In this document: positions 7,901-58,426 of the stretch, piece by piece
Numbering within the stretch: the first letter of the stretch is position 1
How the letters are laid out: each line of letters begins with the position of its first letter
From: a virus
Taxonomy: Duplodnaviria > Heunggongvirae > Uroviricota > Caudoviricetes
Virus record (IMG/VR): IMGVR_UViG_3300031994_000015
Span: 94,276-158,275 of that record
Length of the DNA: 64,000 nt
Direction: 5' to 3' (one strand)
Program-made: the position numbers and the translations under genes
Notes under the pieces: model-generated
Seen by the model: the letters and a program-made list of their open reading frames with translations, nothing else
What the model was told of the DNA's origin: nothing
Database searches by the model: none

Positions 7901-10900
7901 GAGAGATATTTTGATTTTAATAAAATGTTCTTTATAAGAAATTATGATGATAACACATTTTTAGGATCATATGTATATTTCAAAATAGATAACAATAAAT
8001 GTTATAGTAATAAAATTATAAATAAATACCATGAAATATACACAGAAGCAGGTTTAGAAACTATTGGAAATGCCGAAGATTGGTTAGAAATCATAGAAGA
8101 CTTAAGAAAATATAATATTGGATATATTAATCTAAATGGTATAAGTGGTATAAATAGAATTAAAAAGCATATATATTTACCTCTTAATTCAATTACAAAT
8201 AATGAACATATTGAAATCCAAAATATTTATGACCAAGAAATTAAATATAATATCATTCCTGAGATTAATAATTTTTATAACAGATATACTGAAAAGATAA
8301 ATATCAATAATGAAAATTATCTTAATAATATTTTAATATTCAATATATTCAAGAACAATCAAATTAATAAGAATATATTTAATAGCACAATATTTGGTAA
8401 TGTAAAATTAAGTGCAAACGGTATTATGTTTTCTCATAATGATTTAGATGAGAAAATTTATTTAAAGGGAAAAGCTTTATGGAGTGAAAATATTGATTCA
8501 AAATATTTAGATTTGTATGGTTTTTATATCAACCAAAAAGATTCTCATAGAAAATATCCTTGGAGTTGGGGTTCAAAAATAAAACCTATATTAGGAAATT
8601 TAGAAGCAATACAAATACCAGGACAATTTATATATTATCAAGATTCATTAGGAAATATAATTGGTAGTAATATTAAAATTAATTATAAAAAAGAAAATTT
8701 AGCTCAAATAATTTGTAATAATATTGAAGATTTTACCCATATTGAAGATAAGTTACCAAGTGATTATAAATGGATCAATAATAATGTTCAAAAAATTAAA
8801 TATGAAAAATTTGGAAATTCTGACAATATTACTGTAACTTATAAAACTGGTGAAATAGAAACAAATAAATTTATCTTAAATGTTAAATATATTAAGATTA
8901 ATCCATTAAATGGTCAATATTCAATATTAAATGAAATTACAAATTATGATTTATATAGAATCAATTCTTCAAACAATGATGGCAACTTAGATATTAAATT
9001 ATTATGTACTATAATTAAAATCTCTGTTGTTTATGAAGAAGTTGGTGAAGAAAAAGAAATAACATTAAATGTTTCTGATGCATATTTAAGTCGTTTAGAT
9101 ACGTCAAAAAATATAATTGATAAATTAGATATTATACCTTATGGTTTTGGAAAAATAGGTAATACCAATTATATAATTGGAAAACGATATGATGAATATT
9201 ATGCTATTGATCTAAATAAATTAAAAAATGGAAAATTTGAAGGTATAAAAATATTTTGTAAAGGAAATTCACAATATTTAGATAATAGAATTTCATCAAT
9301 AATAGAAGCTGAACAACCTGGATTATATGTATATAATTATGATTATTATAGAACAAGTACTGAAAATCTTAATTTAGATAGATTAGAATCTTCATTAGAT
9401 GTAAGTAATGATGCAGGAGAATTATTAGTAGATCGTGGTTTGGCAAGATTATACAGAGTTAATTATGATAATAATATTAAATATTTGATATTCTATGAAA
9501 GAGATATTAAATATGCATATGATTTAATGTCTCAATTCTCTGATTGTAATGCCGAAAATTGTATTATTTTAGAAGATATTTATCATGATTTTAAAACTAA
9601 ACAACATGTGAATGAAGGAAATAATAATACAAGAATATTAACAAAAATGTATGATAAATTCAATAATAAAAAATCATTATTACTTAATAAAATTATATAT
9701 AGCAAAACAAATACTGATTTAAATAAAATAGATTTCAATATTTTAGATTCTAAATTTATTAGTCTTAATGATGACGATATAGTTTATGTTATATATCAAT
9801 ATCAAAATCAAGAAGATTTAAATCCAATAATTTATAAATCATACACAAAAATTGAATTAGAAGATGGAGAAAATACAATTAAAGGTATAGTAAATAACTT
9901 AAATACAACACAAAATGGCATTTATAAATATGTTATAACTAATAAATTTAATTATATTAAAAATTACATTTATACATTAACTTGGGAGACTAATATTTAT
10001 GGAGCATCAATAAATTTATTTATTTTGAAAGAAAATTCTTATGAAATTCTTAAATATAAAGATAGTGAATTTTTGATGACTGATGATATAAAATCTATAC
10101 AAATGAGTTTTGTTGTCGAAAATAATGTACAAAATACTTTTATAGATGGATATATTATACCTAAAATATTCTCAAGTAAATTAACAAATAGTTATTCACA
10201 ATTAAAATATATTCCATCATCAGATTCTAATAAATTCATAGAAATCAATATTGATGGTAATAAATATGTTTATGATGATAATACCGATGATGATAAAGTA
10301 AAATTATATAATGATTTCTTTGAAATAGATTATCTTGCTACAAAAAGAGATGAAAATGGAAGAATAAGTGAAGAAAATACTGGTACTGTATATGAGATAG
10401 AAAAATTATTTAATATTGAAAAAAATTATTTGAAATGGTCAAATAACAATCAATTTACTTGTCGAAAAATTATATCTAATACAGATTTGCATAATAACAC
10501 TATTTTAATTACTAATGGTGATGTTTATTATGAATATACACAAGTTAATGATAAAGATATTTTAGCATATTTTGATAGTTTGTCAGAATTTAATAAATAT
10601 AATTTGGTTAATTTGATTAAGTATGATTTCAGTATTAAAACATACATAGATTTTTATGATTGTCATGTTTATAAATATATAATAGATAGTACTCCTATTA
10701 ATGAAGATAATGATTGTATAATTACTGAAAACTTAGAAGAGATTAAATTACCTGATTATTTTGTAGAAGAGAATTATGTAAAAGTAATCAAACAAAAAAT
10801 CAATTTAAAGAAATTCTTTGATTATGACTTCTATTTAATGCATGACTATGATTATTGGTATGGTGTATTTATATCTAAAGAAGTTATATCTAAGAACATT

Positions 10901-11344
10901 AATAATAGTAACTTAAAGATTTCTAAAGATTATAAAGTAATAGAATCTACAATATATCAAGAAAATGATTTCTACGAAAACAACACACCATATGTATTAA
11001 AATTAGTTGGATCTAGTAATGAATTCTTGATTAACCGTATGATGTTTGAAGAAACTAATGGAGTTAACCATTTTGATAATGATAAAATGATAGTGGCTAA
11101 ATTGGAAAACAATAATAAGCTACCTGTCGATATATTTAATTCACCTAAATGGGAAATAACTCCAAAATCAATAGGAATGGATAAAACATTAAAAATCAAT
11201 TCTAATCAAAATATGGCTTTAATATCATTCCCAGAAAATAATAATGTTTATCAAAAAGGTTATTATGATGTCAAAGTAAGATATTCATTAGATAAGAATA
11301 TTCAACACCAATTGCATAAAGATGGAATTATACGTATTGGATAA
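4997..11344 (+). CDS. giant 2115-aa protein, Asn/Ile/Lys/Tyr-rich; function unknown (possibly a large virion or tail-associated protein)
   Basis: Uninterrupted 6.3-kb ORF with no credible competing ORF; no catalytic motif recognised (no DxDGD). Confidence 0.85.
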   Translation: MDFLDNSGHVFSLPSYSEEPIGHEFEENDYIFWLDNNVTSSLSVNNYYSRVINLVIPYDSYENMSFDELVDITISMDSHKFWLLKPTDIQNLVNETDNISNIVHNINAKDNYRFNTLTNDDLYVLTISNNYENSNQWVRSNMAVVPLYILGKAKEEGTWISNILIHIKDKSEDYESVTEDWVSISVGGIFKDENEILTINGQNMGITLPKEMFRAVYQQSFLNDEFNENLYNLKLKEYLINFMNIKGEQGNFRSANNSLKWFGYKDHLVLTKLMKTDNDIKEQYVHDWFNLKTDLIKSFKYFRNSTFVSIKLKENQEIGERYLFNEDKESSFFGEGKPILENLFKKEIPVKVGYDEDQWTYWKPYYDFTFYEMGLKLSCLKYYYETYFLPIHLKVHSATIAHQVFTNDIKFDNKVFNTVRTESIINTEETFENNGNNIEFKRNIVEFDSNNVRYFTHQIHYVDENFNEYKSYNDKENGKTFYKIDDTCLSIPIRFNNDVDSNGLNIPTYFNCVLLLEREGLDNETINQYRLNILNHPINIWYYDINILSKQTKKPLDLSNYEIVFSEMNQFNKSDIISNGLEGLKTYLKTYFAIPVFSKYYDLDNENYNLEFVYTDDGEYIQLYRASLTQQILNKFKNYDSNIINNLFNILDQLSVTKEDEAHNNFKYLHISETPIEYIDKDWYIYIPPISQFNFNPMNTNDIYGEIFIVPKVNIQLKFDQTEIHDFIIKPKTGNSISIKDKIRINYIPLSKVMYESHFNFVQDKTHLDSVYNSFILYPKYINNQDINYFINKKFTLRLLVNNHWYKYDFETKMPDVNLKFGTLKYKYYSTTDNYYSRFSQLLDLTSNSVTFNSFMYHPEFVEVNHINFFKDLDNYIKLNSLKYLSNDGELLKLSNFNRYIDYEYYDEDNKVKKIKIYISKFITDKKFFIYFDTDWLQEDYTLFKLIPAQIGYNLLANRNDDLCILGEERYFDFNKMFFIRNYDDNTFLGSYVYFKIDNNKCYSNKIINKYHEIYTEAGLETIGNAEDWLEIIEDLRKYNIGYINLNGISGINRIKKHIYLPLNSITNNEHIEIQNIYDQEIKYNIIPEINNFYNRYTEKININNENYLNNILIFNIFKNNQINKNIFNSTIFGNVKLSANGIMFSHNDLDEKIYLKGKALWSENIDSKYLDLYGFYINQKDSHRKYPWSWGSKIKPILGNLEAIQIPGQFIYYQDSLGNIIGSNIKINYKKENLAQIICNNIEDFTHIEDKLPSDYKWINNNVQKIKYEKFGNSDNITVTYKTGEIETNKFILNVKYIKINPLNGQYSILNEITNYDLYRINSSNNDGNLDIKLLCTIIKISVVYEEVGEEKEITLNVSDAYLSRLDTSKNIIDKLDIIPYGFGKIGNTNYIIGKRYDEYYAIDLNKLKNGKFEGIKIFCKGNSQYLDNRISSIIEAEQPGLYVYNYDYYRTSTENLNLDRLESSLDVSNDAGELLVDRGLARLYRVNYDNNIKYLIFYERDIKYAYDLMSQFSDCNAENCIILEDIYHDFKTKQHVNEGNNNTRILTKMYDKFNNKKSLLLNKIIYSKTNTDLNKIDFNILDSKFISLNDDDIVYVIYQYQNQEDLNPIIYKSYTKIELEDGENTIKGIVNNLNTTQNGIYKYVITNKFNYIKNYIYTLTWETNIYGASINLFILKENSYEILKYKDSEFLMTDDIKSIQMSFVVENNVQNTFIDGYIIPKIFSSKLTNSYSQLKYIPSSDSNKFIEINIDGNKYVYDDNTDDDKVKLYNDFFEIDYLATKRDENGRISEENTGTVYEIEKLFNIEKNYLKWSNNNQFTCRKIISNTDLHNNTILITNGDVYYEYTQVNDKDILAYFDSLSEFNKYNLVNLIKYDFSIKTYIDFYDCHVYKYIIDSTPINEDNDCIITENLEEIKLPDYFVEENYVKVIKQKINLKKFFDYDFYLMHDYDYWYGVFISKEVISKNINNSNLKISKDYKVIESTIYQENDFYENNTPYVLKLVGSSNEFLINRMMFEETNGVNHFDNDKMIVAKLENNNKLPVDIFNSPKWEITPKSIGMDKTLKINSNQNMALISFPENNNVYQKGYYDVKVRYSLDKNIQHQLHKDGIIRIG

Positions 11345-11375: not shown

Positions 11376-11795
11376 ATGAAAGAAATATCTCAATGGTTAT
11401 TTGAACATATCAATACACCTAAAACTACTAAAGCCTTTGTAATAATCAAACCTGGATTTTTAGATTATACACAAGAAATTTATGATTACATTAAAGAAAA
11501 AGGTTTTGAAATGTATGATCATACTAACAAACAACAACTTAGTGATTGGCAAATAAAAGAACTTTATAAGATGCATAAAGATAAAGATTTCTATAAAGAT
11601 CTTTGTGAATATATGAAAGGATATATTGAAGCATCTATTTGGGGTTATGAAGGTTCAAAAGATCCAATTAAAGAGATGGATAAAATCAAAGATCATTTTA
11701 GGGATAAATATGGTAAAGATGATATGAGAAATGTTATGCATAGTTCAGATTCAAAAACAAATGTAATGAGAGAAGCAAAATTAATATTTAATTAA
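11376..11795 (+). CDS. ndk: nucleoside diphosphate kinase
   Basis: AFVIIKPGF (NDK IKPDG region) and NVMHSSDSKTNVMREAKLIF (NDK HGSDS...E..LWF C-terminal signature); spacing is consistent along the whole length. Confidence 0.75.
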   Translation: MKEISQWLFEHINTPKTTKAFVIIKPGFLDYTQEIYDYIKEKGFEMYDHTNKQQLSDWQIKELYKMHKDKDFYKDLCEYMKGYIEASIWGYEGSKDPIKEMDKIKDHFRDKYGKDDMRNVMHSSDSKTNVMREAKLIFN

Positions 11796-11820
11796 ATAAC
11801 AAATAATATTAAAAAAAATT

Positions 11821-11852
11821 AGCTAGGAATTTGAAATTCCTAGCTTTTTTTC
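11821..11852 (+). terminator. Rho-independent terminator (agctaggaatttgaaattcctagct + T7)
   Basis: Perfect 11-bp stem followed by a T-run immediately after ndk. Confidence 0.7.
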
Positions 11853-11880
11853 TATATTATATATGTAAAACAAATAAATA
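11852..11880 (+). promoter_or_regulatory. conserved promoter-like motif CTATATTATATATGTAAAACAAATAAATA
   Basis: Near-identical motif also at 30744 and 14689, with a variant at 40833; each lies 30-55 nt upstream of the start of a GC-rich gene. Confidence 0.5.
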
Positions 11881-11888
11881 TTAAAAAT

Positions 11889-12263
11889 ATGAATAAGATT
11901 ACAGAAGCCCTTTCAAAGATTTTTACAGAGAAGCAGATTCAGGTCCTCAAAGATGCTTGGAGATATGGAGCATGGGGAGACTCAGAAGTTAATTTCGGTA
12001 AAGATGAAGATGAGTGGGGACTCGGTGCTTGTACAAATGATGCTAAGAAGGGAGGTCACTTCACCGGTCGTCAGGTCTCCGGCATTATGTCAGGTATCTC
12101 TAAGAAGATCGATGCAACTGGTACTGATATGGTAGCAAGCTTTCCTGACTGGTGGGGAGATGGAACTGGAGATATGGTTTTCTTCAATCATCATGCCCTT
12201 GGTTTTGATAATTCCGACGAAGGATGGGATGCTTTGAATGAGTGGTCAAAGTCAAATGATTAA
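11889..12263 (+). CDS. hypothetical small protein, GC-rich, Gly/Trp/Asp-rich (124 aa)
   Basis: Codon usage is markedly GC-richer than neighbours; preceded by a terminator and the conserved motif. Confidence 0.6.
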   Translation: MNKITEALSKIFTEKQIQVLKDAWRYGAWGDSEVNFGKDEDEWGLGACTNDAKKGGHFTGRQVSGIMSGISKKIDATGTDMVASFPDWWGDGTGDMVFFNHHALGFDNSDEGWDALNEWSKSND

Positions 12264-12268
12264 ATAAT

Positions 12269-12439
12269 ATGTTAACAGAAAAAGACAAGAAGCTAATTGA
12301 AGAAGCTTATAAAGTACCTTACACCGAATGGTATCTTATAGATGAAAATAAAGCTGAAACTCCTGAAGGAAAAGAAGCACTCCATTCTATAGCAAGTAGT
12401 AAATATCATACAGACGAATATTACGCAGGTTTACTTTAA
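12269..12439 (+). CDS. hypothetical small protein (56 aa, MLTEKDKKLIEEAYKVPYTEWY...)
   Basis: Below the 60-aa track threshold; fills the gap between 12263 and 12441 with TAATATG-type junctions on both sides. Confidence 0.4.
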   Translation: MLTEKDKKLIEEAYKVPYTEWYLIDENKAETPEGKEALHSIASSKYHTDEYYAGLL

Positions 12440-12440
12440 T

Positions 12441-12707
12441 ATGGAAAAGAAGTCAGTTACTCCGAAGATTAAAAATGGTACAATTTGTACTTTAATCAAG
12501 AATGAGAATACAGTATTTCACCTTATTGGAAAAAACTATAAGCTTGGTTATCCTTATGCCGATATTGTAATGTTCAGAGGTGAATTTACATGCATGGGTG
12601 GAGCTCAAACAGTAGCTTATACAAATGAGTGGAAAGAAGCTTCTGACGAACAGAAAGAGCATTGGTATTCAGAATATAAGAAAGTAACAGGTAAAGATTG
12701 GAAGTAA
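12441..12707 (+). CDS. hypothetical protein
   Basis: 88-aa ORF in the packed operon. Confidence 0.45.
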   Translation: MEKKSVTPKIKNGTICTLIKNENTVFHLIGKNYKLGYPYADIVMFRGEFTCMGGAQTVAYTNEWKEASDEQKEHWYSEYKKVTGKDWK

Positions 12708-12949
12708 TGAATGTATTAGAAATTGGTAAAACTGCAGGAGTCAATCCTATGTTTCAGGCAATGTATGCCTTTGGAACAATTGATAGTTGGCTTGAAAAAA
12801 TGGATGAATATTTTGCAAATCCTATGCGATATAGTTCAATTATCAATAAGCTTGGACAATGTGGAATTGATAAAGAACTTATTGACTCCATGCATGTAGC
12901 TAAAGATTTTATGAACAAAATTGTTGAAGCCACTAAGACAAATAAATAA
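12698..12949 (+). CDS. hypothetical protein
   Basis: 83-aa ORF. Confidence 0.4.
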   Translation: MEVMNVLEIGKTAGVNPMFQAMYAFGTIDSWLEKMDEYFANPMRYSSIINKLGQCGIDKELIDSMHVAKDFMNKIVEATKTNK

Positions 12950-13461
12950 TGAGAAAATTGATTTTTACAATGCTCTTATTGAGCACATTTAATACATTTG
13001 CATATAATATTTCAACTTCTGGTAAACAGTTTATAAAAGATCAAGAGACTTGTGTTTTGACAGCATATTGGGATTCGAATGGGTATTCAATTGGTTGGGG
13101 ACATCATGGTTCAGATGTGAAAAAGAACATGAAAATCTCTAAAGCCCAAGCGAATAAGTATTTTAATAAAGATATTAAAGAGATTGAAGCGGCTGCAAAT
13201 CGTCTTATCAACAATCTTCCTTACAAGTATAAGTTTTCACAAGGATTTTTTGATGGTCTTTGTTCATTAGTATATAATACCGGTGAAGGTGGAGTACAAA
13301 AGTCTGAGTTCTATCAACGGTTGAAACGATGCCGAGTAAAGAATGGAAAAATGAATCAAAATGATTTGAACTATTCTATCGCTGGTGTAAAGACATCTCG
13401 AATTTCTTGTAAAGGACATATTTCTCGTAGATATGATGAACATAAGTTAATGCTTAACTAA
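12949..13461 (+). CDS. lysozyme (glycoside hydrolase family 24, T4 e-like) with N-terminal signal peptide
   Basis: Hydrophobic N-terminus MRKLIFTMLLLSTFNTFA, then QETCVLTAYWDSNGYSIGWGH matching the GH24 E...D...T(A/S)Y.D..G..TIG.GH signature. Confidence 0.7.
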   Translation: MRKLIFTMLLLSTFNTFAYNISTSGKQFIKDQETCVLTAYWDSNGYSIGWGHHGSDVKKNMKISKAQANKYFNKDIKEIEAAANRLINNLPYKYKFSQGFFDGLCSLVYNTGEGGVQKSEFYQRLKRCRVKNGKMNQNDLNYSIAGVKTSRISCKGHISRRYDEHKLMLN

Positions 13462-13462
13462 T

Positions 13463-13657
13463 ATGAAAGAATATATACCAAAAGAATCAGTTATCAAAGA
13501 ATTAAAGAGAAGATTCGGATTTGTTGAAAATAGAATGCTAAGAAATCGTTGTTATAATGATGAAGCTATAGCAGCATGGGATAGAGATGCAGCACTATAT
13601 AAAGTTTATCAAGATTTAATTTCTTTTACTATTGATTTACCTACAATTACAAAATAA
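13463..13657 (+). CDS. hypothetical protein
   Basis: 64-aa ORF. Confidence 0.4.
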   Translation: MKEYIPKESVIKELKRRFGFVENRMLRNRCYNDEAIAAWDRDAALYKVYQDLISFTIDLPTITK

Positions 13658-13658
13658 T

Positions 13659-14027
13659 ATGAAAAATTGGATTAGTAGACATTGGTTTGGTATTACAATG
13701 ACAATTGGGATTTCAATTATACCACTATTCATAATTAGTGAATTAATATACTATAATTGTGAGGAAGATAGTAAAGTATATGTTGAATGGACAGTATATG
13801 ATGGCTATACTCCAAGAAATTATTCTGGTACTTATGAAATGAAAGGCTCAGAATTTGAAGTACAAAACTATTGGCAATCGGCCGGCAAATATAGAGGTTC
13901 ATATAGAGTTGTACGTATTGTTGATAAGAATGCTGGTGGCTCTTATATTAATAGACAATCAGTATGTATTTATACAGGAATGAATGATGTTGAAGTAACT
14001 AAAATTAAAGTTTTAGAAACAAAGTAA
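13659..14027 (+). CDS. small membrane protein (one TM helix: WFGITMTIGISIIPLFIISELIYY); possible holin or lysis accessory protein
   Basis: Start moved to the internal ATG at 13659, immediately after the stop of the upstream gene; lies downstream of the lysozyme. Confidence 0.4.
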   Translation: MKNWISRHWFGITMTIGISIIPLFIISELIYYNCEEDSKVYVEWTVYDGYTPRNYSGTYEMKGSEFEVQNYWQSAGKYRGSYRVVRIVDKNAGGSYINRQSVCIYTGMNDVEVTKIKVLETK

Positions 14028-14028
14028 T

Positions 14029-14298
14029 ATGAAATACGAAGTATTATTTGACTTAGAATATTATAATGGCTCTAATGGTTCTGAATGTGTAACCTTTGAA
14101 ACTTTTGGAAAGAATAAGAAAGTTTTAAGAGCTAAACTTAAAGAATATATTGAAAGTTTTTATAAAGCCCCAGAAAAACTTCATAATGTAAGAATTGTAT
14201 ATATTAAGAGATTTGAGTCAATACGTCCTTACAGTGTATGGGGTAGAGAAGAATGGGATAAGTTTAACGATAAATTATATCATAAAAATTATGGATGA
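14029..14298 (+). CDS. hypothetical protein
   Basis: 89-aa ORF. Confidence 0.4.
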   Translation: MKYEVLFDLEYYNGSNGSECVTFETFGKNKKVLRAKLKEYIESFYKAPEKLHNVRIVYIKRFESIRPYSVWGREEWDKFNDKLYHKNYG

Positions 14299-14488
14299 GG
14301 AAAAACTTTATTCAATGTATGTAAAATGTATCAATCCTCCTAAGATGACATTTTTTTACATAAATTGTACATATTTCTTAAAGTATCATAGAATGAATGA
14401 TATTGTATGGTATACAGCTGAAGATGGAAATTATATAGAACATACTTTCCATGAAAATTCTTGGCAAAAATATTTTGAAAAAATTTAA
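14291..14488 (+). CDS. hypothetical protein (MDEEKLYSMYVKCINPPK...)
   Basis: Track ORF 14195 trimmed to the internal ATG overlapping the stop of the upstream gene (ATGGATGA). Confidence 0.35.
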   Translation: MDEEKLYSMYVKCINPPKMTFFYINCTYFLKYHRMNDIVWYTAEDGNYIEHTFHENSWQKYFEKI

Positions 14489-14493
14489 TTATA

Positions 14494-14665
14494 ATGATTA
14501 TGGGAATTAAGTGGTATTTACAGTATGCATGGGTTAAGTTAAATATTTGGGTATTAACTCCTATTGTTTGGATTGAACAGAAATGGGATGAATATAAAGA
14601 ATGGCGTCTCCGTACTTATATTCAATATCAAATTGCTATGAGTGAAATTAATAAAAACAAATAAT
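14494..14665 (+). CDS. hypothetical small Trp-rich protein (56 aa)
   Basis: Below the track threshold; fills an otherwise empty 240-bp gap. Confidence 0.3.
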
Positions 14666-14688
14666 ATTTGAAATTTATAATAGAATAT

Positions 14689-14705
14689 CTATATTATATA
14701 AGTAA
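14689..14705 (+). promoter_or_regulatory. conserved promoter-like motif CTATATTATATAAGTAA
   Basis: Same core as 11852 and 30744, located 24 nt upstream of the GC-rich gene 14729. Confidence 0.45.
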
Positions 14706-14728
14706 TTAACAATTTAAATAATATAATA

Positions 14729-15358
14729 ATGGATAAAGTATTTTATGTAATTGAGTCTCTTCTTGACCCTACAGAGGATAATTCATTTTCTCTTGTTGAT
14801 GAGACTTCTGGTGAGAACAAAGCAACTGTAGTTATCAAGGATGGTAAGGCCGGAATTTATTTTGAATCCGGTGACATTGAGGAGTTTGGTGAGGATTTTG
14901 GCCGAATGCTTGCCCGAGTTAAGGAGTTGGATTTGAAGTTTATCAAGCTTATGAATGGCAATCACCGTTGGCATAAGTATAACCCAAATCCTAAGTCACG
15001 TAATATTGGTGATTGCACTCTTCGTTCTTATTGTGCCGCTTTTGATATTACTTGGGAGAAGGCATTTGATATTGCATCTCGTGTAGCTAAGGCTAATTCA
15101 AGTATGGTTCAGTATGTTTCTGATAAGGTTCTTATTGAGGAGTTTGGTTGTACTGTTGATGAGAACTATAATAAGAAGAAGGTTAAGGGAAAGGATCGAA
15201 TTACTGTCAACAACTTTGCAATGACCCATCCTTATGGAACTTACATTCTTCATGTTCGTCAGCATCAGGTAACTGTTAAGAATGGTGAATATTGGGACTC
15301 TTGGGATAGTGGTGACAAGAAAGTTGATACAGTTTATCTTCCACCTAAGAAGAATTAA
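14729..15358 (+). CDS. hypothetical protein, GC-rich (209 aa)
   Basis: GC-rich codon usage; preceded by the motif and followed by a terminator. Confidence 0.6.
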   Translation: MDKVFYVIESLLDPTEDNSFSLVDETSGENKATVVIKDGKAGIYFESGDIEEFGEDFGRMLARVKELDLKFIKLMNGNHRWHKYNPNPKSRNIGDCTLRSYCAAFDITWEKAFDIASRVAKANSSMVQYVSDKVLIEEFGCTVDENYNKKKVKGKDRITVNNFAMTHPYGTYILHVRQHQVTVKNGEYWDSWDSGDKKVDTVYLPPKKN

Positions 15359-15376
15359 AATATATCATTATTAAAG

Positions 15377-15410
15377 AAAGGTAGCTAGAAATAGCTACCT
15401 TTTTTGTTTT
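15377..15410 (+). terminator. Rho-independent terminator (aaaggtagcta gaaa tagctaccttt + T-run)
   Basis: Inverted repeat plus TTTTTGTTTT. Confidence 0.65.
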
Positions 15411-15450
15411 AAATTTATTTTTATATATATCAAAATAATATATAGAAATA

Positions 15451-17670
15451 ATGGCTTTATCATTAGGATCTATTGCATCAAGTGCATTAAGTGGGGTTTC
15501 TGTACAAAGTACTTTATCTGGTTTAGGTGGCTTAGGAAGTACTATTAATAACCTTATTAGTGGTGATGTATATACAAATGTACCAACAAAAGATTTAACA
15601 TTAACACAAGCAACTAAAGTAAATATATTCAAAAAGGATAATACAATATCCGGTTTTAATGGATATATAGGGTTAAAACGATACAATCATTCAAATTCAG
15701 TTATTTTTGAAGACCCTTCTAAATTTGGGTTATCATTCTTAAGAGAAATGAATACCTATCAATTCACATATCAAAAGGGTATCAAAGCTTTTTATAATTC
15801 ATCATTAGAAGGAAAAAAAGTTCAAGTGGCTTATCTTAGTACTAATTCTTCAATGGCTTTATTTAATCCTTATTATGGTGTTGCAGCTGCCGGTATTGCT
15901 CCTAATGTTCCTTTGATAAATGGTTTATATACGACTGAAAATAATTTCACTTATATTAAAGATTGTACAATTCAAAATTTGATTAAAGATTCATTAACTA
16001 TGAATTCTCCATTAGGTCAAGCAAGATATAGATTGATTGACTTTATGTATTGTAAAGATTTAGGAAAAGTTCCAAATAACCATTTAATAACATTACGTAG
16101 ATTTCCATTTGCAATCGGTGATCATATTGGTAGATTAACAAATCCTAATATGTCTGATCCAAGTGCTCAAGATGCTAACTTTAGTACACCAGGTGATATC
16201 GGTAGATTGGTAACTTGGTTTGGCACTGAAGATAATAAACTTGAAGATATTTGCAAGTATGAAATGAAAATGTCTTGGAAGGAGTATAATTCAGAAATCC
16301 AAGAAGTTGATAATGGTAACCAAGACCAAGATAAAGCTGAGAGAGGTTTATTTGGTACATTAGCTAATACTATGAATCCGGCATATAATTCTTTTAATGT
16401 CAAATATGGTGGAGCTAACAATACTTTCTTTAATTATTTAGGTTCAAAAATTTTCAAGACTAATTTGGATTCTAGTTCTAACTATGATATATTTAGAATG
16501 GATTCTGATAAGAATAAAGTTTATACCCCAAAGAATACCGTTCAAGATACTCATATTTATGAAGGTAAATTAACATTAAATCAAGAAATAACAATTAACT
16601 TTTGTTATAAACTTAGAGCTTATGATAATATTAATCCTAAGTCAGCTATGCTTGATTTAATGGGTAATATTTTAGAGACAACATATAATAGAGGTAGATA
16701 TTGGGCAGGTGCAAGAAGAATGATTGGTCCACCTACTAATACTTCAGCATGGCAAACTTATGATGCTTTCTTAGAGAATGCTTGGCAAAAATTAGGTGGA
16801 GTGATTCATGCTATGGCTTCTGGTACAATTAATTTCAATGATATATTAGGTTCAATAGCTAATTTCATGAAAGGTGCTCTTGATAAAGGTACCAAAATGG
16901 TTGGAAATGTTGTAGAATCTGTTCAAGATAAAGGTGTTTTAGGGGCTGTAGCTAGTGGAGCAGAAGAATTAGAAAAATTAACAGGTGCTTCTAATGCTGT
17001 AAAAGCAATGTTAAAGAGTAAATTAGGTCGTCCAAAACTTTTTGCTTTGAATTCACTTATTGGTGGTCATGATGTTGGTTTTTGGCATTTAACTGTTGGT
17101 AATCCATATAACCCAATCATGTCAATAGGTAATCTTATTATGACTAATTCTTCAGTTCAACACATGGGACCTTTAGGAGTAGATGACTTCCCGTCAGAGG
17201 TTAAAGTAACAGTTACATTAAAACCTGGTAGATCTAGAGATGTTATAGAAATTGGCAGATATTATACCCAAGGTATTAGAGGTATTTATCAAGCTAAAGT
17301 TAGACAACCAATAGAGCAATTCCACCAAATGAATTTAGCTATTGGTGAAAATGCAAAAAATAATGTATATGTAGCCCCAGAAAATGAAGTAGAAGAAGAT
17401 AGATTGGTATCTTCAAAAAATCAACCAAATAAATCTTCACAACAAGCCCAACCAAATACTAATAATAATCCTAATAAAGGAGCTAAGGATGCACAACCAG
17501 ATACAGCGATGGAATTAGCTAATCGCCAAGTGATGGAGAAATATCAAGGATATAAAAATGCTTCAAATGATGGTTTAATTACTGATCCTACTAATGCAAT
17601 GTTATTCACTCATAATCAATATAACCCATTATTCTTGATGAGAGGATATGATGAAGTTGCTTCTGGTTAA
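15451..17670 (+). CDS. large hypothetical protein (739 aa), Ser/Gly-rich N-terminus and Asn/Gln/Pro-rich C-terminal tail; possibly a virion protein
   Basis: Long ORF with no catalytic motif recognised. Confidence 0.6.
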   Translation: MALSLGSIASSALSGVSVQSTLSGLGGLGSTINNLISGDVYTNVPTKDLTLTQATKVNIFKKDNTISGFNGYIGLKRYNHSNSVIFEDPSKFGLSFLREMNTYQFTYQKGIKAFYNSSLEGKKVQVAYLSTNSSMALFNPYYGVAAAGIAPNVPLINGLYTTENNFTYIKDCTIQNLIKDSLTMNSPLGQARYRLIDFMYCKDLGKVPNNHLITLRRFPFAIGDHIGRLTNPNMSDPSAQDANFSTPGDIGRLVTWFGTEDNKLEDICKYEMKMSWKEYNSEIQEVDNGNQDQDKAERGLFGTLANTMNPAYNSFNVKYGGANNTFFNYLGSKIFKTNLDSSSNYDIFRMDSDKNKVYTPKNTVQDTHIYEGKLTLNQEITINFCYKLRAYDNINPKSAMLDLMGNILETTYNRGRYWAGARRMIGPPTNTSAWQTYDAFLENAWQKLGGVIHAMASGTINFNDILGSIANFMKGALDKGTKMVGNVVESVQDKGVLGAVASGAEELEKLTGASNAVKAMLKSKLGRPKLFALNSLIGGHDVGFWHLTVGNPYNPIMSIGNLIMTNSSVQHMGPLGVDDFPSEVKVTVTLKPGRSRDVIEIGRYYTQGIRGIYQAKVRQPIEQFHQMNLAIGENAKNNVYVAPENEVEEDRLVSSKNQPNKSSQQAQPNTNNNPNKGAKDAQPDTAMELANRQVMEKYQGYKNASNDGLITDPTNAMLFTHNQYNPLFLMRGYDEVASG

Positions 17671-17726
17671 ATTGAATTAACATTTATTAATATCTATTTT
17701 AATATATAAAAACATATGTTTGTTTA

Positions 17727-18803
17727 ATGAATAAAATTTTATTTATTGGTCTTAATGGATATGCAGGAGCAGGAAAAGATACAGTAGCAAAAATGCTTAA
17801 AACAATATTATCTAAAGATTGGGAAACATTAGATGAATGCAAGAAATATTATTTTAGTAGATATACAAACCCTACACAATCAGCTACTTACCATATAACT
17901 AAATTTGATGAAGATGATGAAAAGGTTTTATGTATAGCTTATGCAGATCAATTAAAAGAAATTTGTGCAAAGATGTTTGGAATACCAAGGCAAAGATTCT
18001 ACCAAAATAAATCTACAGCTTGGATTTGTATTAATGATAAATTTCAATATACAGAGATAAAACCTGATGAAGACCATATAATAACTGCTGATGAATATTA
18101 TTACTCTACTTCTTCTATAGGTGAAAACCAACCTAAAATGTGGATGTCTTTAAGAGAAATTCTTGTATATGTTGGAACTTATGTATTACAACAATCTATA
18201 AATAAAAAAATATTTGTCAATATAGTACGTAATACAGTTAAAGAAGAACAACAAAGAAATCCTAAACTTGAATATGTTATTGTAACAGATAATAGATTTA
18301 ATCATGAACTTGAATATATCCATGAAACAAATGGTATAACTATTTCTATTCAACGTAATTCTGTAGAGCAATTGGATAATGTTGCAGAACATGATTTGGA
18401 TGATGTTGAAGATTATGATTACATTATAGATAATTCTGGATCTTATGATGAATTATTTGAGCAAATATGGAATATTGTGCATGATAATATAGAATTTAGA
18501 AATATAACTATTGATTTATATAATAGAGATAATGTAAATAATTATCTTAGATTAATAGAAGTTACAGAAGAAACACCCGAAGAAGATAGTTACAATATTT
18601 ATAAATTATGTTCTCCATTAAAGATTCAACAATTATATAAGAATGGTGATGAAATAACTGTGATAAATCCTACTGGTGGGCCAATGATTTGTATAAATGA
18701 AGAAATTGATGGAACAGAAGATTTGATTCCAATAAAAATCATCATGGATGAAAACACTAATCAATTTTTAATATATACACTCAGTAATGATATGGATAGC
18801 TAG
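17727..18803 (+). CDS. P-loop nucleotide kinase, T4 gp1 (dNMP kinase)-like
   Basis: FIGLNGYAGAGKDTVA matches the G..G.GKDT P-loop characteristic of phage dNMP kinases; 358 aa. Confidence 0.5.
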   Translation: MNKILFIGLNGYAGAGKDTVAKMLKTILSKDWETLDECKKYYFSRYTNPTQSATYHITKFDEDDEKVLCIAYADQLKEICAKMFGIPRQRFYQNKSTAWICINDKFQYTEIKPDEDHIITADEYYYSTSSIGENQPKMWMSLREILVYVGTYVLQQSINKKIFVNIVRNTVKEEQQRNPKLEYVIVTDNRFNHELEYIHETNGITISIQRNSVEQLDNVAEHDLDDVEDYDYIIDNSGSYDELFEQIWNIVHDNIEFRNITIDLYNRDNVNNYLRLIEVTEETPEEDSYNIYKLCSPLKIQQLYKNGDEITVINPTGGPMICINEEIDGTEDLIPIKIIMDENTNQFLIYTLSNDMDS

Positions 18804-30463: not shown

Positions 30464-30661
30464 TGTTAGAAGGAATAATTATATTTGGTATAGGTTTTTT
30501 ATTTGGTAAATATACTAATCAAATGATCGATATTTGTAAAGGATTATATTTAAGATATTTTGATAAAGAAAAAACTGATGCATAAACTGTTAGTGTGTTT
30601 TTCATAATATTAAACTTAAGGTTAACTATTTTTGTATATATTTTTTTAAGTTTATGCATTT

Positions 30662-30694
30662 GGGAGGTCATGAAGACCTCCCATTTTTATTTTA
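30662..30694 (+). terminator. Rho-independent terminator (gggaggtc atga gacctccc + atttttatttt)
   Basis: GC-rich 8-bp stem plus T-run. Confidence 0.7.
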
Positions 30695-30743
30695 AATTTT
30701 TTGAAATATTTTTGTATTATATTTGAATTTTTAGAATTATTTT

Positions 30744-30762
30744 CTATATTATATATGTAAAT
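30744..30762 (+). promoter_or_regulatory. conserved promoter-like motif CTATATTATATATGTAAA, with CAAATAATAAA downstream
   Basis: Identical 18-mer to 11852, located 35 nt upstream of GC-rich gene 30797. Confidence 0.5.
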
Positions 30763-30796: not shown

Positions 30797-31105
30797 ATGA
30801 TGACAAAGGAATTTAACCTCGAGATGGCAAAGAATGGTGCAGCAATTCAGACAAAGCTCGGTAATCCGGTAAAGTTCAATTGTATCACCAACGATAACAA
30901 GCTTTTCGTTACGGTTTTCAAGCGGAATCGAATTGTAGGAGGTGATCATAAGGCAATTGCTCCTTCTTTCGGTGGAACACAAGATAAGTATTGCCTGAAT
31001 GGCCGAAAGTATGCCGGAACTACTACAATGTTTGACCTCGAGATGGTAGAGCCCTACAACGTTGGTCAGCCTCGTGATGCTAAAGGTCGCTTTACCAAGA
31101 AGTAA
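30797..31105 (+). CDS. hypothetical small protein, GC-rich, basic C-terminus (RDAKGRFTKK)
   Basis: GC-rich codon usage; preceded by a terminator and the motif. Confidence 0.6.
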   Translation: MMTKEFNLEMAKNGAAIQTKLGNPVKFNCITNDNKLFVTVFKRNRIVGGDHKAIAPSFGGTQDKYCLNGRKYAGTTTMFDLEMVEPYNVGQPRDAKGRFTKK

Positions 31106-31172
31106 TTAGAAATTTATCTAACTGGCAAGAGGAATCTGAAAAGAATCTTCTTGCCAATATTTGTGATATATT

Positions 31173-40866: not shown

Positions 40867-40885
40867 AAAAATAGAAGTATATAAT

Positions 40886-53533: not shown

Positions 53534-53589
53534 ACTATTTTAACATATTTTTATATAAAATAGAAAAGAGTTGAATTTGTATTCAACTC

Positions 53590-57113: not shown

Positions 57114-57258
57114 AGAAAAAATTAAATATTATTTTTAATAAATGCTTAAATATTTTTTAAAAAATAGTTCATTAAAATTGAATTTTTTCAATTATATACT
57201 ATATTTTTATTGAATAATATATAAAAAATAGAAGGCATAGATAATAAATATTAAAAAA

Positions 57259-57268: not shown

Positions 57269-58426
57269 ATGAAAAAAATTACATCTATTTTAGAATCAAA
57301 GGCAAAAAAGATTGATGTGAAGGATAGTGTGTGTTTTCTTAAGAAAGCAGATCTTGAGAAATATCTTGACGTAGCTAAGAATTGTTTGTCTGTTGAATCT
57401 AAAGCTATTATTGATTATTTGATTAAGAACAATGATTCTTATATGTCTTTGTCAGAAGATGATGAGAATCCTATTGTTGGATTCTATAATGCTGGTTTAG
57501 CAAATGCTTCAGATAAAGATCTTTGGAAGCTCATTGATGCCGTTGTAAAGAGTGGTCGTATTCTTGAAATTCCTACTCTTCAAAATGAAAAAGAATTTAA
57601 AGATATAATCAATGGTAATTTACCTGCTGATTATGTTATTCTCCAACTTAATACAGAAAAGGGACGTAATGCTGTTCCTAAGCAATATGATAATCTTATT
57701 TATAAAATCATCGGTCAATGGCAAGGTAAGTCTACCTTTGGACAAGATGATTTGAAGAGTATGGCTTATGAAGGTATTGTCTATGCTATGCAAACTTATG
57801 GAAAACGTTCTAAGAAAACTAAAGGTGAAGATGTAACAAAACTTACTTTTGGCCAATATGCTGCTTGGTGTATTCGTAACACTATTCTTGAAAATATCAA
57901 GCAACTTTCACATGTAGTTCGTATTCCAATTTCACAACAACAAAAAGAAAAGGAATCTACTGGTAAGAACACTAAATCAAATGCTGTATCAGGTGACAAA
58001 GTAGTTGGTCATGGTGAAGATGGAAGCAAGACATTATTTGACTTCATGGGAATGACTGATGATACTGGTCGTGGAGTAGATGATGCAGATGTTCGTAAGC
58101 TTTGGGATGAAATCTACAAACTTCTTGATGATGAGTTTGATAAGAAGACTATGGATATTTTCTATGCTTTCAATGGTCTTCGTGATTATGAAGGTAAACC
58201 AGTTCCTAATAAAGAGCTTGCACAAAAATATGGTTGCAAACCATCACAAATCACTTACTATTGCTATCGTGTAAAAGACTTTATGGCAAAAGATAAGCGT
58301 GTTAAAGATCGCCTTATTGAAGTACGTGAATTGATGAATGAATGTCAAGCTGAACGTGATAGAGATGACAATAATGGTCCTATTTATGTTCATGTAACTG
58401 AGAAAAATACATTAGACGAAGATTAA
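57269..58426 (+). CDS. sigma-70-family RNA polymerase sigma factor, tagged (MKKITSILES)
   Basis: DDLKSMAYEGIVYAMQTYG...TFGQYAAWCIRNTILENIKQLSHVVRIPI matches sigma-70 regions 2.1-2.4 (DLIQEG..GL..AV..FD...FSTYA.WWIR..I.R......IR.P). Confidence 0.7.
   Translation: MKKITSILESKAKKIDVKDSVCFLKKADLEKYLDVAKNCLSVESKAIIDYLIKNNDSYMSLSEDDENPIVGFYNAGLANASDKDLWKLIDAVVKSGRILEIPTLQNEKEFKDIINGNLPADYVILQLNTEKGRNAVPKQYDNLIYKIIGQWQGKSTFGQDDLKSMAYEGIVYAMQTYGKRSKKTKGEDVTKLTFGQYAAWCIRNTILENIKQLSHVVRIPISQQQKEKESTGKNTKSNAVSGDKVVGHGEDGSKTLFDFMGMTDDTGRGVDDADVRKLWDEIYKLLDDEFDKKTMDIFYAFNGLRDYEGKPVPNKELAQKYGCKPSQITYYCYRVKDFMAKDKRVKDRLIEVRELMNECQAERDRDDNNGPIYVHVTEKNTLDED

What the first reader, a model, noticed from the sequence alone, without database searches (positions are those of the whole stretch)
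11821..15410. Recurrent motif CTATATTATATA[TA]GTAA + CAAATAA upstream of short GC-rich genes, each also preceded by a terminator
Near-identical 17-29-nt motifs sit at 11852, 14689 and 30744, with a variant at 40833 upstream of the sheath gene. Each lies 25-55 nt before the ATG of a gene whose GC content is far above the local background. These are 11889 (124 aa), 14729 (209 aa) and 30797 (102 aa). Two of them (11852 and 30744) are immediately preceded by Rho-independent terminators, so they are insulated single-gene transcription units. This looks like a phage-specific strong promoter class, possibly read by the phage sigma factor at 57269, driving abundant small proteins of unknown function. 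Alternatively, the GC-rich genes could be recently acquired cassettes that moved together with their promoter.
Basis: seen in the sequence. Interest (0 to 1): 0.6.

Follow-up and report, generated by a model that had tools for sequence, protein, structure and literature searches.

The report
Conserved promoter class of huge phages
The repeated AT-rich motif is the strongest form of a two-part promoter that an uncultivated clade of huge rumen phages uses for its non-structural genes, including three conserved small genes with unusual codon usage and, in relatives, tRNA arrays. This is a real but fairly ordinary kind of feature.

Summary
CTATATTATATAWGTAA occurs exactly three times (0.01 expected), always intergenic and 37-53 nt before a co-oriented ATG. 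The motif is half of a bipartite element, TTGAA-N16-CTATATTATATAWGTAA. A looser form, TTGAA-N16-19-CTATWTT, occurs 7 times in the window (0.77 expected). All 7 are intergenic and co-oriented, and they lie upstream of non-structural genes, including the phage sigma gene. Related huge-phage contigs yield 38 non-redundant sites in 340 kb (window included), 37 of them intergenic. Some lie upstream of orthologues and some directly upstream of tRNA arrays. I read it as a sigma-70-type promoter class for the non-late regulon. Whether the phage's RpoD-like sigma (slightly favoured) or host sigma-A reads it is unresolved.

- The 40833 "variant" lacks the TTGAA element and follows a different recurrent motif, TTATTTTTA, found before structural genes.
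- Only two of the three sites have an upstream terminator.
- 11889 heads a ten-gene operon, not a single-gene unit.

The three genes rank first to third of 80 for GC3 and strongly prefer AAG/GAG/CAG. Orthologues in divergent phages keep this bias and their synteny, so recent acquisition is unlikely.

The parts
11821..11845 (+). Intrinsic terminator hairpin (11-bp stem, T-run on both sides). Its apex carries the TTGAA -35-like element of the next promoter.
   Evidence: -15.2 kcal/mol, z -4.35. The orthologous site in L122 has a different stem sequence but keeps TTGAA in the loop.
11831..11868 (+). Consensus class A promoter, TTGAA-N16-CTATATTATATATGTAA. Predicted start near G 11865.
11889..12263 (+). 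124-aa gene (p124). Acidic (pI 4.6) with a weak winged-helix-like fold. GC3 0.38 and NAG codon fraction 0.70. First gene of an operon that runs to 14664.
14668..14705 (+). Consensus class A promoter, TTGAA-N16-CTATATTATATAAGTAA. No upstream terminator.
14729..15358 (+). 209-aa gene (p209). Acidic N-terminal domain plus a C-terminal domain with invariant D95-C96, H179 and D190. The family (phrog_3754) is annotated 'putative peptidase' in some Bacillus phages. NAG fraction 0.87.
15374..15405 (+). Intrinsic terminator that closes the single-gene unit 14729-15358.
   Evidence: -18.6 kcal/mol, z -5.7.
17672..17700 (+). Weaker class A promoter (TTGAA-N17-CTATTTT) upstream of the DNMK (deoxynucleotide monophosphate kinase) gene at 17727.
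30661..30683 (+). Intrinsic terminator upstream of the third consensus promoter.
   Evidence: -17.2 kcal/mol, z -4.8.
30723..30760 (+). Consensus class A promoter, TTGAA-N16-CTATATTATATATGTAA.
30797..31105 (+). 102-aa gene (p102). Basic (pI 9.7), small beta-barrel (SH3/Tudor-like, weak match). GC3 0.45, NAG fraction 0.84.
31123..31156 (+). Strong hairpin after p102 with a poor T tail. Probably a partial terminator.
   Evidence: -20.4 kcal/mol, z -5.7.
53557..53586 (-). Weaker class A promoter (TTGAA-N18-CTATTTT), with TTGAA again inside a hairpin. It lies upstream of the 205-aa gene and the helicase operon.
57161..57205 (.). Two divergent class A-type promoters, 57191..57161 on the - strand and 57178..57205 on the + strand. 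The palindrome TTGAATTTTTTCAA (57178-57191) supplies both of their TTGAA elements.
   Evidence: Conservation upstream of sigma orthologues is shown.
57269..58426 (+). Divergent sigma-70-family sigma factor (385 aa). First gene of a long + strand operon that reaches DNA polymerase B beyond the window.
   Evidence: phrog_351, E 5e-13. TIGR02937, E 4e-8, below the curated cut-off; family profile against RpoS/SigA/RpoD region 2 at E 1e-9, plus region 3/4. Operon extent.

Best explanation
The motif is the consensus, presumably strongest, form of a sigma-70-type two-part promoter: a -35-like TTGAA(T)TTTT, a 16-nt A/T-rich spacer, then CTATATTATATATGTAA. The 17-mer contains a -10-like TATATT. Transcription would then start at or just after the conserved G at position 14. 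A/C-rich, G-poor leaders of 24-40 nt follow, containing a Bacteroidota-type TAAAA box and no Shine-Dalgarno sequence.

The class drives the phage's non-late genes. Degenerate copies (TTGAA-N16-19-CTATWTT) precede the sigma/replication operon, the helicase operon and the DNMK (deoxynucleotide monophosphate kinase) gene. Consensus copies precede a few conserved small genes that appear codon-tuned for high output and, in related phages, tRNA arrays. Structural genes carry a different motif, TTATTTTTA.

Shown: the motif, its geometry, its placement, its conservation and the codon bias.

Inferred: promoter activity, the start site, the timing, and the holoenzyme. I slightly favour host core RNA polymerase carrying the phage's own RpoD-like sigma (57269) over host sigma-A.
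For: - Three exact copies against 0.01 expected.
- The composite TTGAA-N16-17-mer gives 27 non-redundant sites in the window plus IMG/VR (public viral-contig collection) huge-phage contigs. Most are 10-36 nt before a co-oriented ATG.
- TTGAA-N16-19-CTATWTT occurs 7 times in the window against 0.77 expected, with 0 of 100 shuffles reaching 7. All 7 are intergenic and co-oriented.
- The window plus related loci hold 38 relaxed sites in 340 kb, 37 of them intergenic although only 13.5% of that sequence is intergenic.
- Orthologues of p124 (L122), p209 (L132) and p102 (L135) keep TTGAA-N16/17-CTATWTTAT while the flanks and hairpin stems differ.
- Sigma orthologues in L146-L149 keep TTGAATTTT-N-CTATATT upstream.
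- Consensus sites lie 69-450 nt upstream of tRNA arrays in L021, L121 and L118.
- Similarity between copies is confined to the promoter elements.
- For the phage sigma: it has regions 2 and 3/4. Canonical TTG-N18-20-TAnnTTTG is almost absent from window intergenic regions. By contrast, Lak-C1 has no detectable homologue of this sigma. Its 40-kb sample shows seven TGTATCTTTGTAT (TAnnTTTG) sites, and its two loose TTGAA-N-TATWTTWT hits lack the CTATWTT core.
- The exact composite occurs in only 7 stretches among 185,579 species genomes. Two contigs carry several sites; RUG343's 410,106-bp scaffold matches an IMG/VR viral contig in length. I read these contigs as phage.
- For codon tuning: the NAG fraction is 0.70-0.87 against about 0.15 elsewhere, and ATA is used 0 times in 21 Ile codons against 40% elsewhere.
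Against: - There are no transcript data, so promoter activity, start site and timing are all inferred.
- The sigma gene itself sits behind the same promoter type. Either host sigma-A must read that type at least weakly, or another promoter primes sigma expression.
- TTG-N19-TATATT matches the Bacteroidota -33/-7 spacing. Independent variants often carry TG at positions 13-14 (TATATTTG is a perfect TAnnTTTG), which hints at host sigma-A.
- The co-occurrence of sigma and motif rests on few genomes and on single-sequence tblastn.
- The link between consensus copies and codon bias is not universal. The fourth exact copy (L144) drives a gene with ordinary codons, and only 15 of 20 related sites have a positive GC3 z-score.
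- Loci fetched by the motif itself bias the apparent invariance of the 17-mer.
Confidence: 0.55

Rival explanations
1. The element is the same promoter class, but host RNA polymerase with host sigma-A reads it. These would be the phage's early promoters, analogous to the strong sigma-70 early promoters of T4. The phage sigma at 57269 is one of their products and directs a later class.
For: - TTG-N19-TA..TT reproduces the Bacteroidota -33 TTG / -7 TAnnTTTG spacing. The consensus is quoted in PMC2483708.
- Variants CTATATTATATTTGTAA in L045, L109, L122 and L133 contain a perfect TAnnTTTG at positions 7-14.
- The sigma gene and its orthologues lie behind this promoter type. This is the arrangement expected for an early gene in a sigma cascade. 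SPO1 gene 28 is the precedent, cited from my own knowledge.
- The downstream genes are small proteins of unknown function, replication genes and tRNA arrays.
- The consensus-driven genes prefer G-ending Lys/Glu/Gln codons, unlike the rest of the phage. That would suit translation from host tRNAs before phage tRNAs accumulate. This last step is an inference.
Against: - In the register with correct spacing the -7 box is TATATTAT, which lacks the TTTG tail of the Bacteroidota consensus.
- In the register with TATATATG or TATATTTG, the distance to TTG is 24 nt rather than about 19-21.
- The weaker copies keep CTATWTT but lose the TG.
- A Prevotella phage without this sigma (Lak-C1) uses clear TAnnTTTG sites instead.
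- The host itself is only inferred. The supporting points are SD-like motifs at 3 of 80 genes, the relatives of the major capsid protein, and TAAAA leaders.
Confidence: 0.3
2. The GC-rich genes are recently acquired, moron-like cassettes that arrived together with their own promoter and terminator.
For: - Two of the three are promoter-gene-terminator units set among late or virion genes.
- Their composition deviates strongly from that of their neighbours.
- A roughly 100-nt terminator-promoter-leader block resembles blocks in front of unrelated genes in a 410-kb phage (L029, 77% identity).
Against: - All three families are conserved. They have 51, 326 and 23 homologue clusters, all on metagenomic contigs of 474 kb or less, and none is named as bacterial.
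- Orthologues occupy the same neighbourhood (NDK ... lysozyme ... 720-740-aa protein, DNMK) in phages of 50-72% identity.
- The codon bias persists in those orthologues, even where the gene has no promoter of its own (L133, L130). This points to selection, not to unameliorated foreign DNA.
- The same promoter type also serves core genes such as sigma, the helicase operon and DNMK.
- Flanks outside the promoter elements do not align.
Confidence: 0.05
3. The motif is not a promoter but another kind of cis element. It could be an operator for a phage DNA-binding protein (TATAT-T-ATATA is palindromic), an RNA-level leader signal, or a hairpin-type promoter for a virion polymerase as in phage N4.
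For: - The 17-mer is far more invariant than a -10 region needs to be, and it contains an 11-nt palindrome.
- At 7 of 31 sites TTGAA sits in the loop of a stable hairpin.
- A 2115-aa protein of unknown function is encoded nearby.
Against: - The fixed 16-nt spacing to TTGAA, the strict co-orientation and the short distance to start codons or tRNA arrays fit a promoter.
- Most sites have no hairpin.
- The 2115-aa protein has no DxDxD motif and no PDB or Pfam match, so nothing suggests it is a polymerase.
- An operator function could coexist with promoter function.
Confidence: 0.1

Closest known systems
Temporal promoter classes of T4-like and 'group 2' jumbo phages (sigma-70-dependent early/middle promoters; the late TATAAATA class read by gp55/gp33)
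   Same: - The phage is a myovirus with a gp23-type capsid protein, a gp13-like neck protein and gp30.3.
- It has no sign of its own RNA polymerase but does encode a sigma. Iyer et al. 2021 (PMC7824862) describe exactly this for group 2, which includes Lak and Tenacibaculum phages.
- It shows two separate upstream motifs, one for non-structural and one for structural genes.
- Strong, extended-consensus promoters sit in front of small genes and tRNA genes.
   Different: - The sequences differ: TTGAA-N16-CTATATTATATATGTAA, and TTATTTTTA instead of TATAAATA.
- The host is probably a Bacteroidota member, whose own consensus is TTTG/TAnnTTTG.
- No MotA/AsiA-type factors were looked for.
- The timing is inferred from gene content only.
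Phage-encoded sigma cascades (for example Bacillus phage SPO1 gp28; cited from my own knowledge)
   Same: A phage sigma with promoter-recognition domains is encoded at the head of a replication-gene operon. A phage-specific bipartite motif that differs from the host consensus is spread over the genome.
   Different: In SPO1 the sigma gene is read from host-type early promoters, which are distinct from the class that the sigma itself recognises. Here the sigma gene lies behind the same motif type as the candidate regulon, so either autoregulation or a host-read class must be assumed. No biochemistry exists for this phage.
Bacteroidota sigma-A promoters (-33 TTTG / -7 TAnnTTTG)
   Same: TTG is followed 19 nt later by TA..TT. 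Leaders are A-rich and lack a Shine-Dalgarno sequence, with a TAAAA box near the ATG (PMC2483708).
   Different: At the correct spacing the -7 box lacks the TTTG tail. Lak-C1, a Prevotella phage, shows the canonical box in seven sites, whereas this clade does not.
Morons of lambdoid phages (promoter-gene-terminator units of deviant composition inside late operons; cited from my own knowledge)
   Same: The architecture of the 14729 and 30797 units matches. Their GC and GC3 are far from those of the neighbouring genes.
   Different: The genes are conserved, syntenic core genes of the clade. They share one promoter type with core operons. The composition difference is a maintained codon bias rather than a sign of foreign origin, and no lysogeny is indicated.

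Membership tests
Sigma-70-type bipartite promoter | -35-like and -10-like hexamers separated by 16-18 nt | tested here: met
   TTGAAn, 16 nt, TATATT at all consensus sites. The spacing is fixed at 16 (rarely 17) in 27 sites. The relaxed form is 9-fold above chance.
Sigma-70-type bipartite promoter | Located upstream of, and co-oriented with, transcription units | tested here: met
   7 of 7 sites in the window and 37 of 38 across the window and related loci are intergenic and co-oriented. Three related sites lie upstream of tRNA arrays.
Sigma-70-type bipartite promoter | Transcript 5' ends 5-9 nt downstream of the -10 element; activity depends on a sigma factor | not testable with these tools
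   No transcript or biochemical data are available. The start at G14 (11865, 14702, 30757) is a prediction.
Bacteroidota sigma-A promoter (TTTG / TAnnTTTG) | -33 TT(T)G about 19-21 nt upstream of the -7 box | tested here: met
   TTG-N19-TATATTAT. Many sites have TTTGAA, others ATTGAA.
Bacteroidota sigma-A promoter (TTTG / TAnnTTTG) | -7 box TAnnTTTG, including the TTTG tail | tested here: not met
   At the correct spacing the box is TATATTAT. TATATATG or TATATTTG lies 5 nt further downstream, 24 nt from TTG. The weak copies lack TG. The canonical pattern is almost absent from window intergenic regions.
Moron | Own promoter and own terminator flanking a single gene inside a late operon | tested here: inconclusive
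   Met for 14729 and largely for 30797. Not met for 11889, which heads a 10-gene operon.
Moron | Sporadic distribution or recent acquisition among related phages | tested here: not met
   Orthologues are syntenic at 50-72% identity and the codon bias is retained.
T4-type late promoter (TATAAATA) | Single -10 element TATAAATA without a -35 element, upstream of late genes | tested here: not met
   Class A has a -35-like element and lies before non-structural genes. TATAAATA is not enriched in intergenic DNA (7 intergenic against 27 coding).
Intrinsic terminator (the hairpins flanking the units) | Stable GC-containing stem-loop followed by a T run | tested here: met
   11821-11845, 30661-30683 and 15374-15405. 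31123-31156 has a poor T tail.
Sigma-70 family (protein encoded at 57269) | Homology to region 2 (-10 recognition, core binding) and region 4 (-35 recognition) | tested here: met
   TIGR02937 at E 4e-8 over residues 138-337, below the curated cut-off of 42.9 bits. phrog_351 at E 5e-13. A 26-sequence family profile hits RpoS/SigA/RpoD region 2 at E 1e-9 and region 3/4. Pfam alone found nothing.

The most novel reading that the evidence does not exclude
The clade runs an orthogonal transcription system in a Bacteroidota host. Its own RpoD-like sigma reads TTGAA-N16-CTATATT promoters, which host sigma-A ignores.

The consensus copies mark a small set of conserved takeover proteins (p124, p209, p102) and tRNA arrays. 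The distinct G-ending codon regime of these proteins (AAG/GAG/CAG) contrasts with the C-ending regime of capsid, sheath and tube genes. That contrast would reflect a switch in the usable tRNA pool between early and late infection.

A subsidiary oddity is that the -35 element is repeatedly built into the loop of the preceding terminator, and one palindrome serves two divergent promoters.
Probability: 0.25. Interest if true: 0.6.

Novelty: new member of a known kind. Interest (0 to 1): 0.42.

Why it matters
- It gives a first promoter map for an uncultivated clade of 140-470-kb rumen phages. The map separates a non-late class (TTGAA/CTATWTT) from a structural-gene class (TTATTTTTA), which allows operon and timing predictions from sequence alone.
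- It singles out three conserved, codon-tuned small proteins as likely abundant products worth characterising.
- If the phage sigma reads the motif, the pair would be a compact, strong expression system for Bacteroidota that is orthogonal to the host. Few such tools exist for this phylum.
- The promoter-linked difference in synonymous codon choice offers a testable handle on how huge phages with their own tRNAs partition translation between stages of infection.

Tried and rejected
- **blastn against GenBank phages:** window 11400-19000 found nothing. The clade has no sequenced isolate.
- **Function of the three proteins:** Pfam, PHROGs and NCBIfam gave no function, apart from a family of unknown function for the p209 C-terminal domain.
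- **Known RNA families:** Rfam and a tRNA scan found nothing in the window.
- **Stop-codon recoding in window 1-3231:** rejected. The region is the end of a 1203-aa DEAD-box helicase gene on the minus strand that runs off the window.
- **The 2115-aa protein as a virion RNA polymerase:** rejected. It has no DxDxD motif and no PDB match.
- **Mobile repeat or MITE:** rejected, because the flanks do not align.
- **Firmicutes host** (from the MAG labels RUG343, RGIG2387 and Romboutsia): rejected. Only 3 of 80 genes have an SD-like motif, and the capsid relatives infect Bacteroidota.
- **Literature searches** for the motif string and for Bacteroidota phage promoters: nothing relevant.
- **Single-protein scan of IMG/VR for the sigma:** nothing found. 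A six-sequence alignment found six orthologous loci.

Full report
**Context.** The window is 28.3% GC and comes from a huge tailed phage.
- It encodes a gp23-type major capsid protein (38929-40674), a tail sheath (40886-44188), a head protease, a tube protein, a gp13-like neck protein, lysozymes, NDK (nucleoside diphosphate kinase), DNMK (deoxynucleotide monophosphate kinase) and an SPFH/Band-7 protein.
- A minus-strand block at 45397-57113 holds DNA-metabolism genes: helicase, Dam methylase, glycosyltransferases, an endonuclease and gp30.3.
- The capsid protein is closest to an uncultured 462-kb phage, to Sphingomonas phage PAU, to Tenacibaculum and Chryseobacterium phages, and to the Prevotella Lak megaphages, at 32-40% identity.
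- There is no nucleotide match in GenBank phages.
- The window is part of a 140.9-kb ENA contig, and near-identical pieces occur in other metagenome assemblies (JGI, ENA, Logan). I take these samples to be rumen metagenomes from my recollection of the JGI sample numbers; no tool output named the sample type.
- Only 3 of 80 genes have an SD-like motif upstream. Leaders carry TAAAA close to the ATG, as described for Flavobacterium (PMC2483708).
- From these points I infer a Bacteroidota host, probably Prevotella-like. This is an inference, not a demonstration.

**The observation.** CTATATTATATAWGTAA is exact at 11852, 14689 and 30744, against 0.01 expected by chance.
- All three copies are intergenic and on the coding strand. 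They start 37, 40 and 53 nt before the ATGs of a 124-aa, a 209-aa and a 102-aa gene.
- Terminator hairpins precede the first and third copies (11821-11845 and 30661-30683). Nothing comparable precedes the second.
- The 14729 gene is closed by a terminator at 15374-15405. The 30797 gene is followed by a strong hairpin with a weak T tail.
- The 11889 gene is followed, without any hairpin, by nine tightly packed genes up to 14664.

**What the motif is part of.** A scan of IMG/VR (a public viral-contig collection) for the 17-mer returned many unrelated hits that look like TTGACA-N17-TATATT sigma-70 promoters from other phage groups. It also returned a coherent group of huge-phage contigs of up to 410 kb.
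- In that group, and at all three window sites, TTGAA lies exactly 16 nt upstream of the 17-mer.
- The composite TTGAA-N16-17-mer gave 24 IMG/VR stretches and 27 non-redundant sites in all.
- The consensus is tatTTGAATTTTtta.attattttCTATATTATATATGTAA.
- Most sites lie 10-36 nt before a co-oriented ATG of a small, varied ORF of 80-306 aa.
- Four exact sites had no ORF behind them. Three of these (L021, L121, L118) lie 69-450 nt upstream of arrays of 3 to 15 tRNA genes on the same strand.

**A broader class.** When the 3' half is relaxed, TTGAA-N16-19-CTATWTT occurs 7 times in the window against 0.77 expected, and 0 of 100 shuffles reach 7. All seven are intergenic and point at the next gene:
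- the three original sites;
- 17672, upstream of DNMK;
- 53586 (minus strand), upstream of a 205-aa gene and the helicase operon;
- a back-to-back pair at 57161-57205.

The pair shares the palindrome TTGAATTTTTTCAA. One member faces the minus-strand operon. The other faces the sigma gene at 57269, which heads about 30 genes running to DNA polymerase B beyond the window. That extension also contains a fourth exact consensus copy, behind its own terminator (L144 14866).

Across 340 kb (the window plus related loci), 38 relaxed sites were found and 37 are intergenic, although only 13.5% of that sequence is intergenic. Loci that were fetched through proteins rather than through the motif (L130, L132, L133, L135) contribute eight of these sites.

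**Conservation at orthologous positions.**
- The p124 orthologue in a 376-kb phage (64% identity, L122) has CTATATTATATTTGTAA. It is preceded by a hairpin with a different stem sequence that again holds TTGAA in its loop.
- The p209 orthologue in L132 (72%) and the p102 orthologue in L135 (51%) keep TTGAA-N17-CTATWTTAT but diverge downstream.
- Four of six sigma orthologues keep TTGAATTTT-N-CTATATT.
- In L133 the p124 orthologue is the second gene behind such a site. In L130 the p209 orthologue sits inside an operon.
- An alignment of the window copies shows that similarity is confined to the promoter elements and the A/C-rich leader, so this is not a mobile repeat.

**The 40833 'variant'.** It lacks TTGAA and CTATWTT. 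It lies just downstream of TTATTTTTA (40819), a second motif with 16 of its 19 window copies in intergenic DNA.
- That motif sits 30-100 nt before the starts of gp13-like, the 2115-aa protein, NDK, the 739-aa protein, the protease, the capsid protein, the sheath, the tube protein and others.
- It also abounds in the structural region of the distant 462-kb phage.
- I take it to be the structural (late) promoter class. I did not pursue it further.

**The GC-rich genes.** The three genes rank 1-3 of 80 for GC3.
- The cause is synonymous codon choice:

| Codon choice | Three genes | Rest of window |
|---|---|---|
| AAG (Lys) | 86% | 22% |
| GAG (Glu) | 72% | 12% |
| CAG (Gln) | 89% | 3% |
| CTN (Leu) | 86% | 28% |
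| CGN (Arg) | 93% | 26% |
| ATA (Ile) | 0 of 21 | 40% |

- Capsid, sheath and tube genes are biased in a different way. They prefer C-ending Phe, Asn and Tyr codons and avoid ATA, but still use GAA and CAA.
- Orthologues in L122, L132, L133 and L135 keep the NAG preference (0.46-0.76 against 0.12-0.29 in their neighbours). The bias is weakest in L130, where the gene is buried in an operon.
- The families are conserved, with 51, 326 and 23 homologue clusters, all on metagenomic contigs of 474 kb or less. They are also syntenic. This argues for maintained selection, most simply for high expression, and against recent acquisition.
- The link to the promoter is a tendency rather than a rule. 15 of 20 related sites have a positive GC3 z-score, and the fourth exact copy drives a gene with ordinary codons.
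- Function remains unknown. p124 is acidic with a confident model and only weak winged-helix similarity. p102 is a basic small beta-barrel. p209 has an acidic N-terminal domain and a widespread phage C-terminal domain with invariant Asp-Cys, His and Asp, annotated 'putative peptidase' in some Bacillus phages.

**Mechanism.** The geometry TTGAAn-16-TATATT is that of a sigma-70-family promoter. With TATATT as the -10 element, the start falls on the conserved G at position 14. The 17-mer then spans the -10 element, the discriminator and the start site.

The protein encoded at 57269 is a divergent but genuine sigma-70-family member with region 2 and region 3/4. This fits the statement of Iyer et al. 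2021 that gp23-type jumbo phages lack their own polymerase but encode sigma factors (PMC7824862).

Points in favour of this sigma reading the class:
- The class is not the host consensus. TTG-N18-20-TAnnTTTG is almost absent from the window's intergenic regions.
- Lak-C1, a Prevotella phage without a detectable homologue of this sigma, shows seven TGTATCTTTGTAT sites in 40 kb, and its two loose TTGAA-N-TATWTTWT hits lack the CTATWTT core.
- The exact composite occurs in only seven stretches among 185,579 species genomes. Two contigs carry several sites; RUG343's 410,106-bp scaffold matches an IMG/VR viral contig in length. I read these contigs as phage.

Points in favour of host sigma-A:
- The spacing equals the Bacteroidota -33/-7 spacing.
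- Several independent variants carry a perfect TAnnTTTG five nt further downstream.
- The sigma gene itself depends on this promoter type.

I put the promoter reading at about 0.85 overall. Within that, it divides roughly 55:30 between the phage sigma and host sigma-A.

**Assessment.** The finding is real and extends well beyond the window. In kind it is a phage-specific promoter class, so it is a new member of a known kind. The more unusual aspects are:
- the promoter-associated codon regime;
- the repeated placement of the -35 element in the loop of the preceding terminator (7 of 31 sites);
- the use of the same consensus promoter for tRNA arrays.

Noticed in passing
window 3193, 4951, 11346, 15415, 18828, 23434, 34946, 37059, 38834, 40819, 44236, 44896 (+ strand): A second recurrent motif, TTATTTTTA(W)TA, lies 30-100 nt upstream of structural or virion genes. 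16 of its 19 copies are intergenic, and the count is 19 against 11.4 expected. It is also frequent in the structural region of the distant 462-kb phage LR756500 (L153). It is probably the late promoter class, although some copies may simply be terminator T-tails.
   Followed up: partly
window 57178-57191: The palindrome TTGAATTTTTTCAA provides the TTGAA element of two divergent promoters, one facing the sigma operon and one facing the minus-strand operon.
   Followed up: partly
window 11821-11845 and 53560-53590; L001, L029, L071, L115, L122, L130, L132 18612, L144 15892: The -35-like TTGAA repeatedly sits in the loop of the preceding intrinsic terminator, and the terminator's T-run forms the promoter spacer. 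Stem sequences differ between orthologous sites while TTGAA is kept.
   Followed up: partly
L021 3829-5317; L121 13215-13670; L118 107-4791: In related huge phages, consensus class A sites lie directly upstream of tRNA gene arrays of 3 to 15 tRNAs.
   Followed up: partly
L041 612-683 (376-kb contig IMGVR_UViG_3300031994_002305): A tRNA with anticodon CUA (amber suppressor type) sits next to tRNA-Trp, which suggests TAG recoding in that relative. The window itself shows no sign of recoding. Its stop codons are TAA 62, TGA 14 and TAG 4, and its long ORFs are intact.
   Followed up: no
L152 (Prevotella phage Lak-C1, MK250029 138014-178412): Seven copies of (A/G)TGTATCTTTGTAT occur upstream of genes. 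This contains a canonical Bacteroidota TAnnTTTG box. The sites are followed by leaders such as AATAATAAACAATTAAAAAT, and that leader string also occurs in the rumen clade (L135).
   Followed up: partly
window 32739-34823: The 694-aa SPFH/Band-7 gene is the fourth most GC3-rich gene (GC3 0.30, NAG 0.48, no ATA). Neither motif class lies in its 52-nt upstream gap.
   Followed up: no
window 37107-44876 compared with 11889-12263, 14729-15358 and 30797-31105: There are two different codon-optimisation regimes. Capsid, sheath and tube genes prefer C-ending Phe, Asn and Tyr codons but keep GAA and CAA. The three small genes prefer AAG, GAG and CAG.
   Followed up: partly
window 4997-11344: A 2115-aa Asn/Ile/Lys/Tyr-rich protein has no Pfam, PHROG or PDB match and no DxDxD motif. 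It is conserved in relatives at 1822-1993 aa and lies behind the structural-gene motif. It is probably a virion protein.
   Followed up: partly
L139, L141, L142 (ONIZ01000001.1); L140, L143; L137, L138: Contigs filed in genome collections as 'uncultured Firmicutes bacterium RUG343' (410 kb), 'Clostridia bacterium RGIG2387' and 'uncultured Romboutsia' carry the phage promoter. RUG343's 410,106-bp scaffold has the same length as an IMG/VR viral contig, so I read them as huge-phage contigs with misleading taxon labels.
   Followed up: no
window 11862-11868 and 30754-30760: The consensus 17-mer ends in ATGTAA, a start codon followed directly by a stop codon, inside the predicted leader. The 14689 copy has AAGTAA instead, so this is probably incidental.
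   Followed up: no
window 46314-46342 (- strand): This is the only intergenic, co-oriented match to the canonical Bacteroidota pattern TTG-N18-20-TAnnTTTG. It lies about 120 nt upstream of the 264-aa gene at 45397-46191 and could be a host-type promoter.
   Followed up: no
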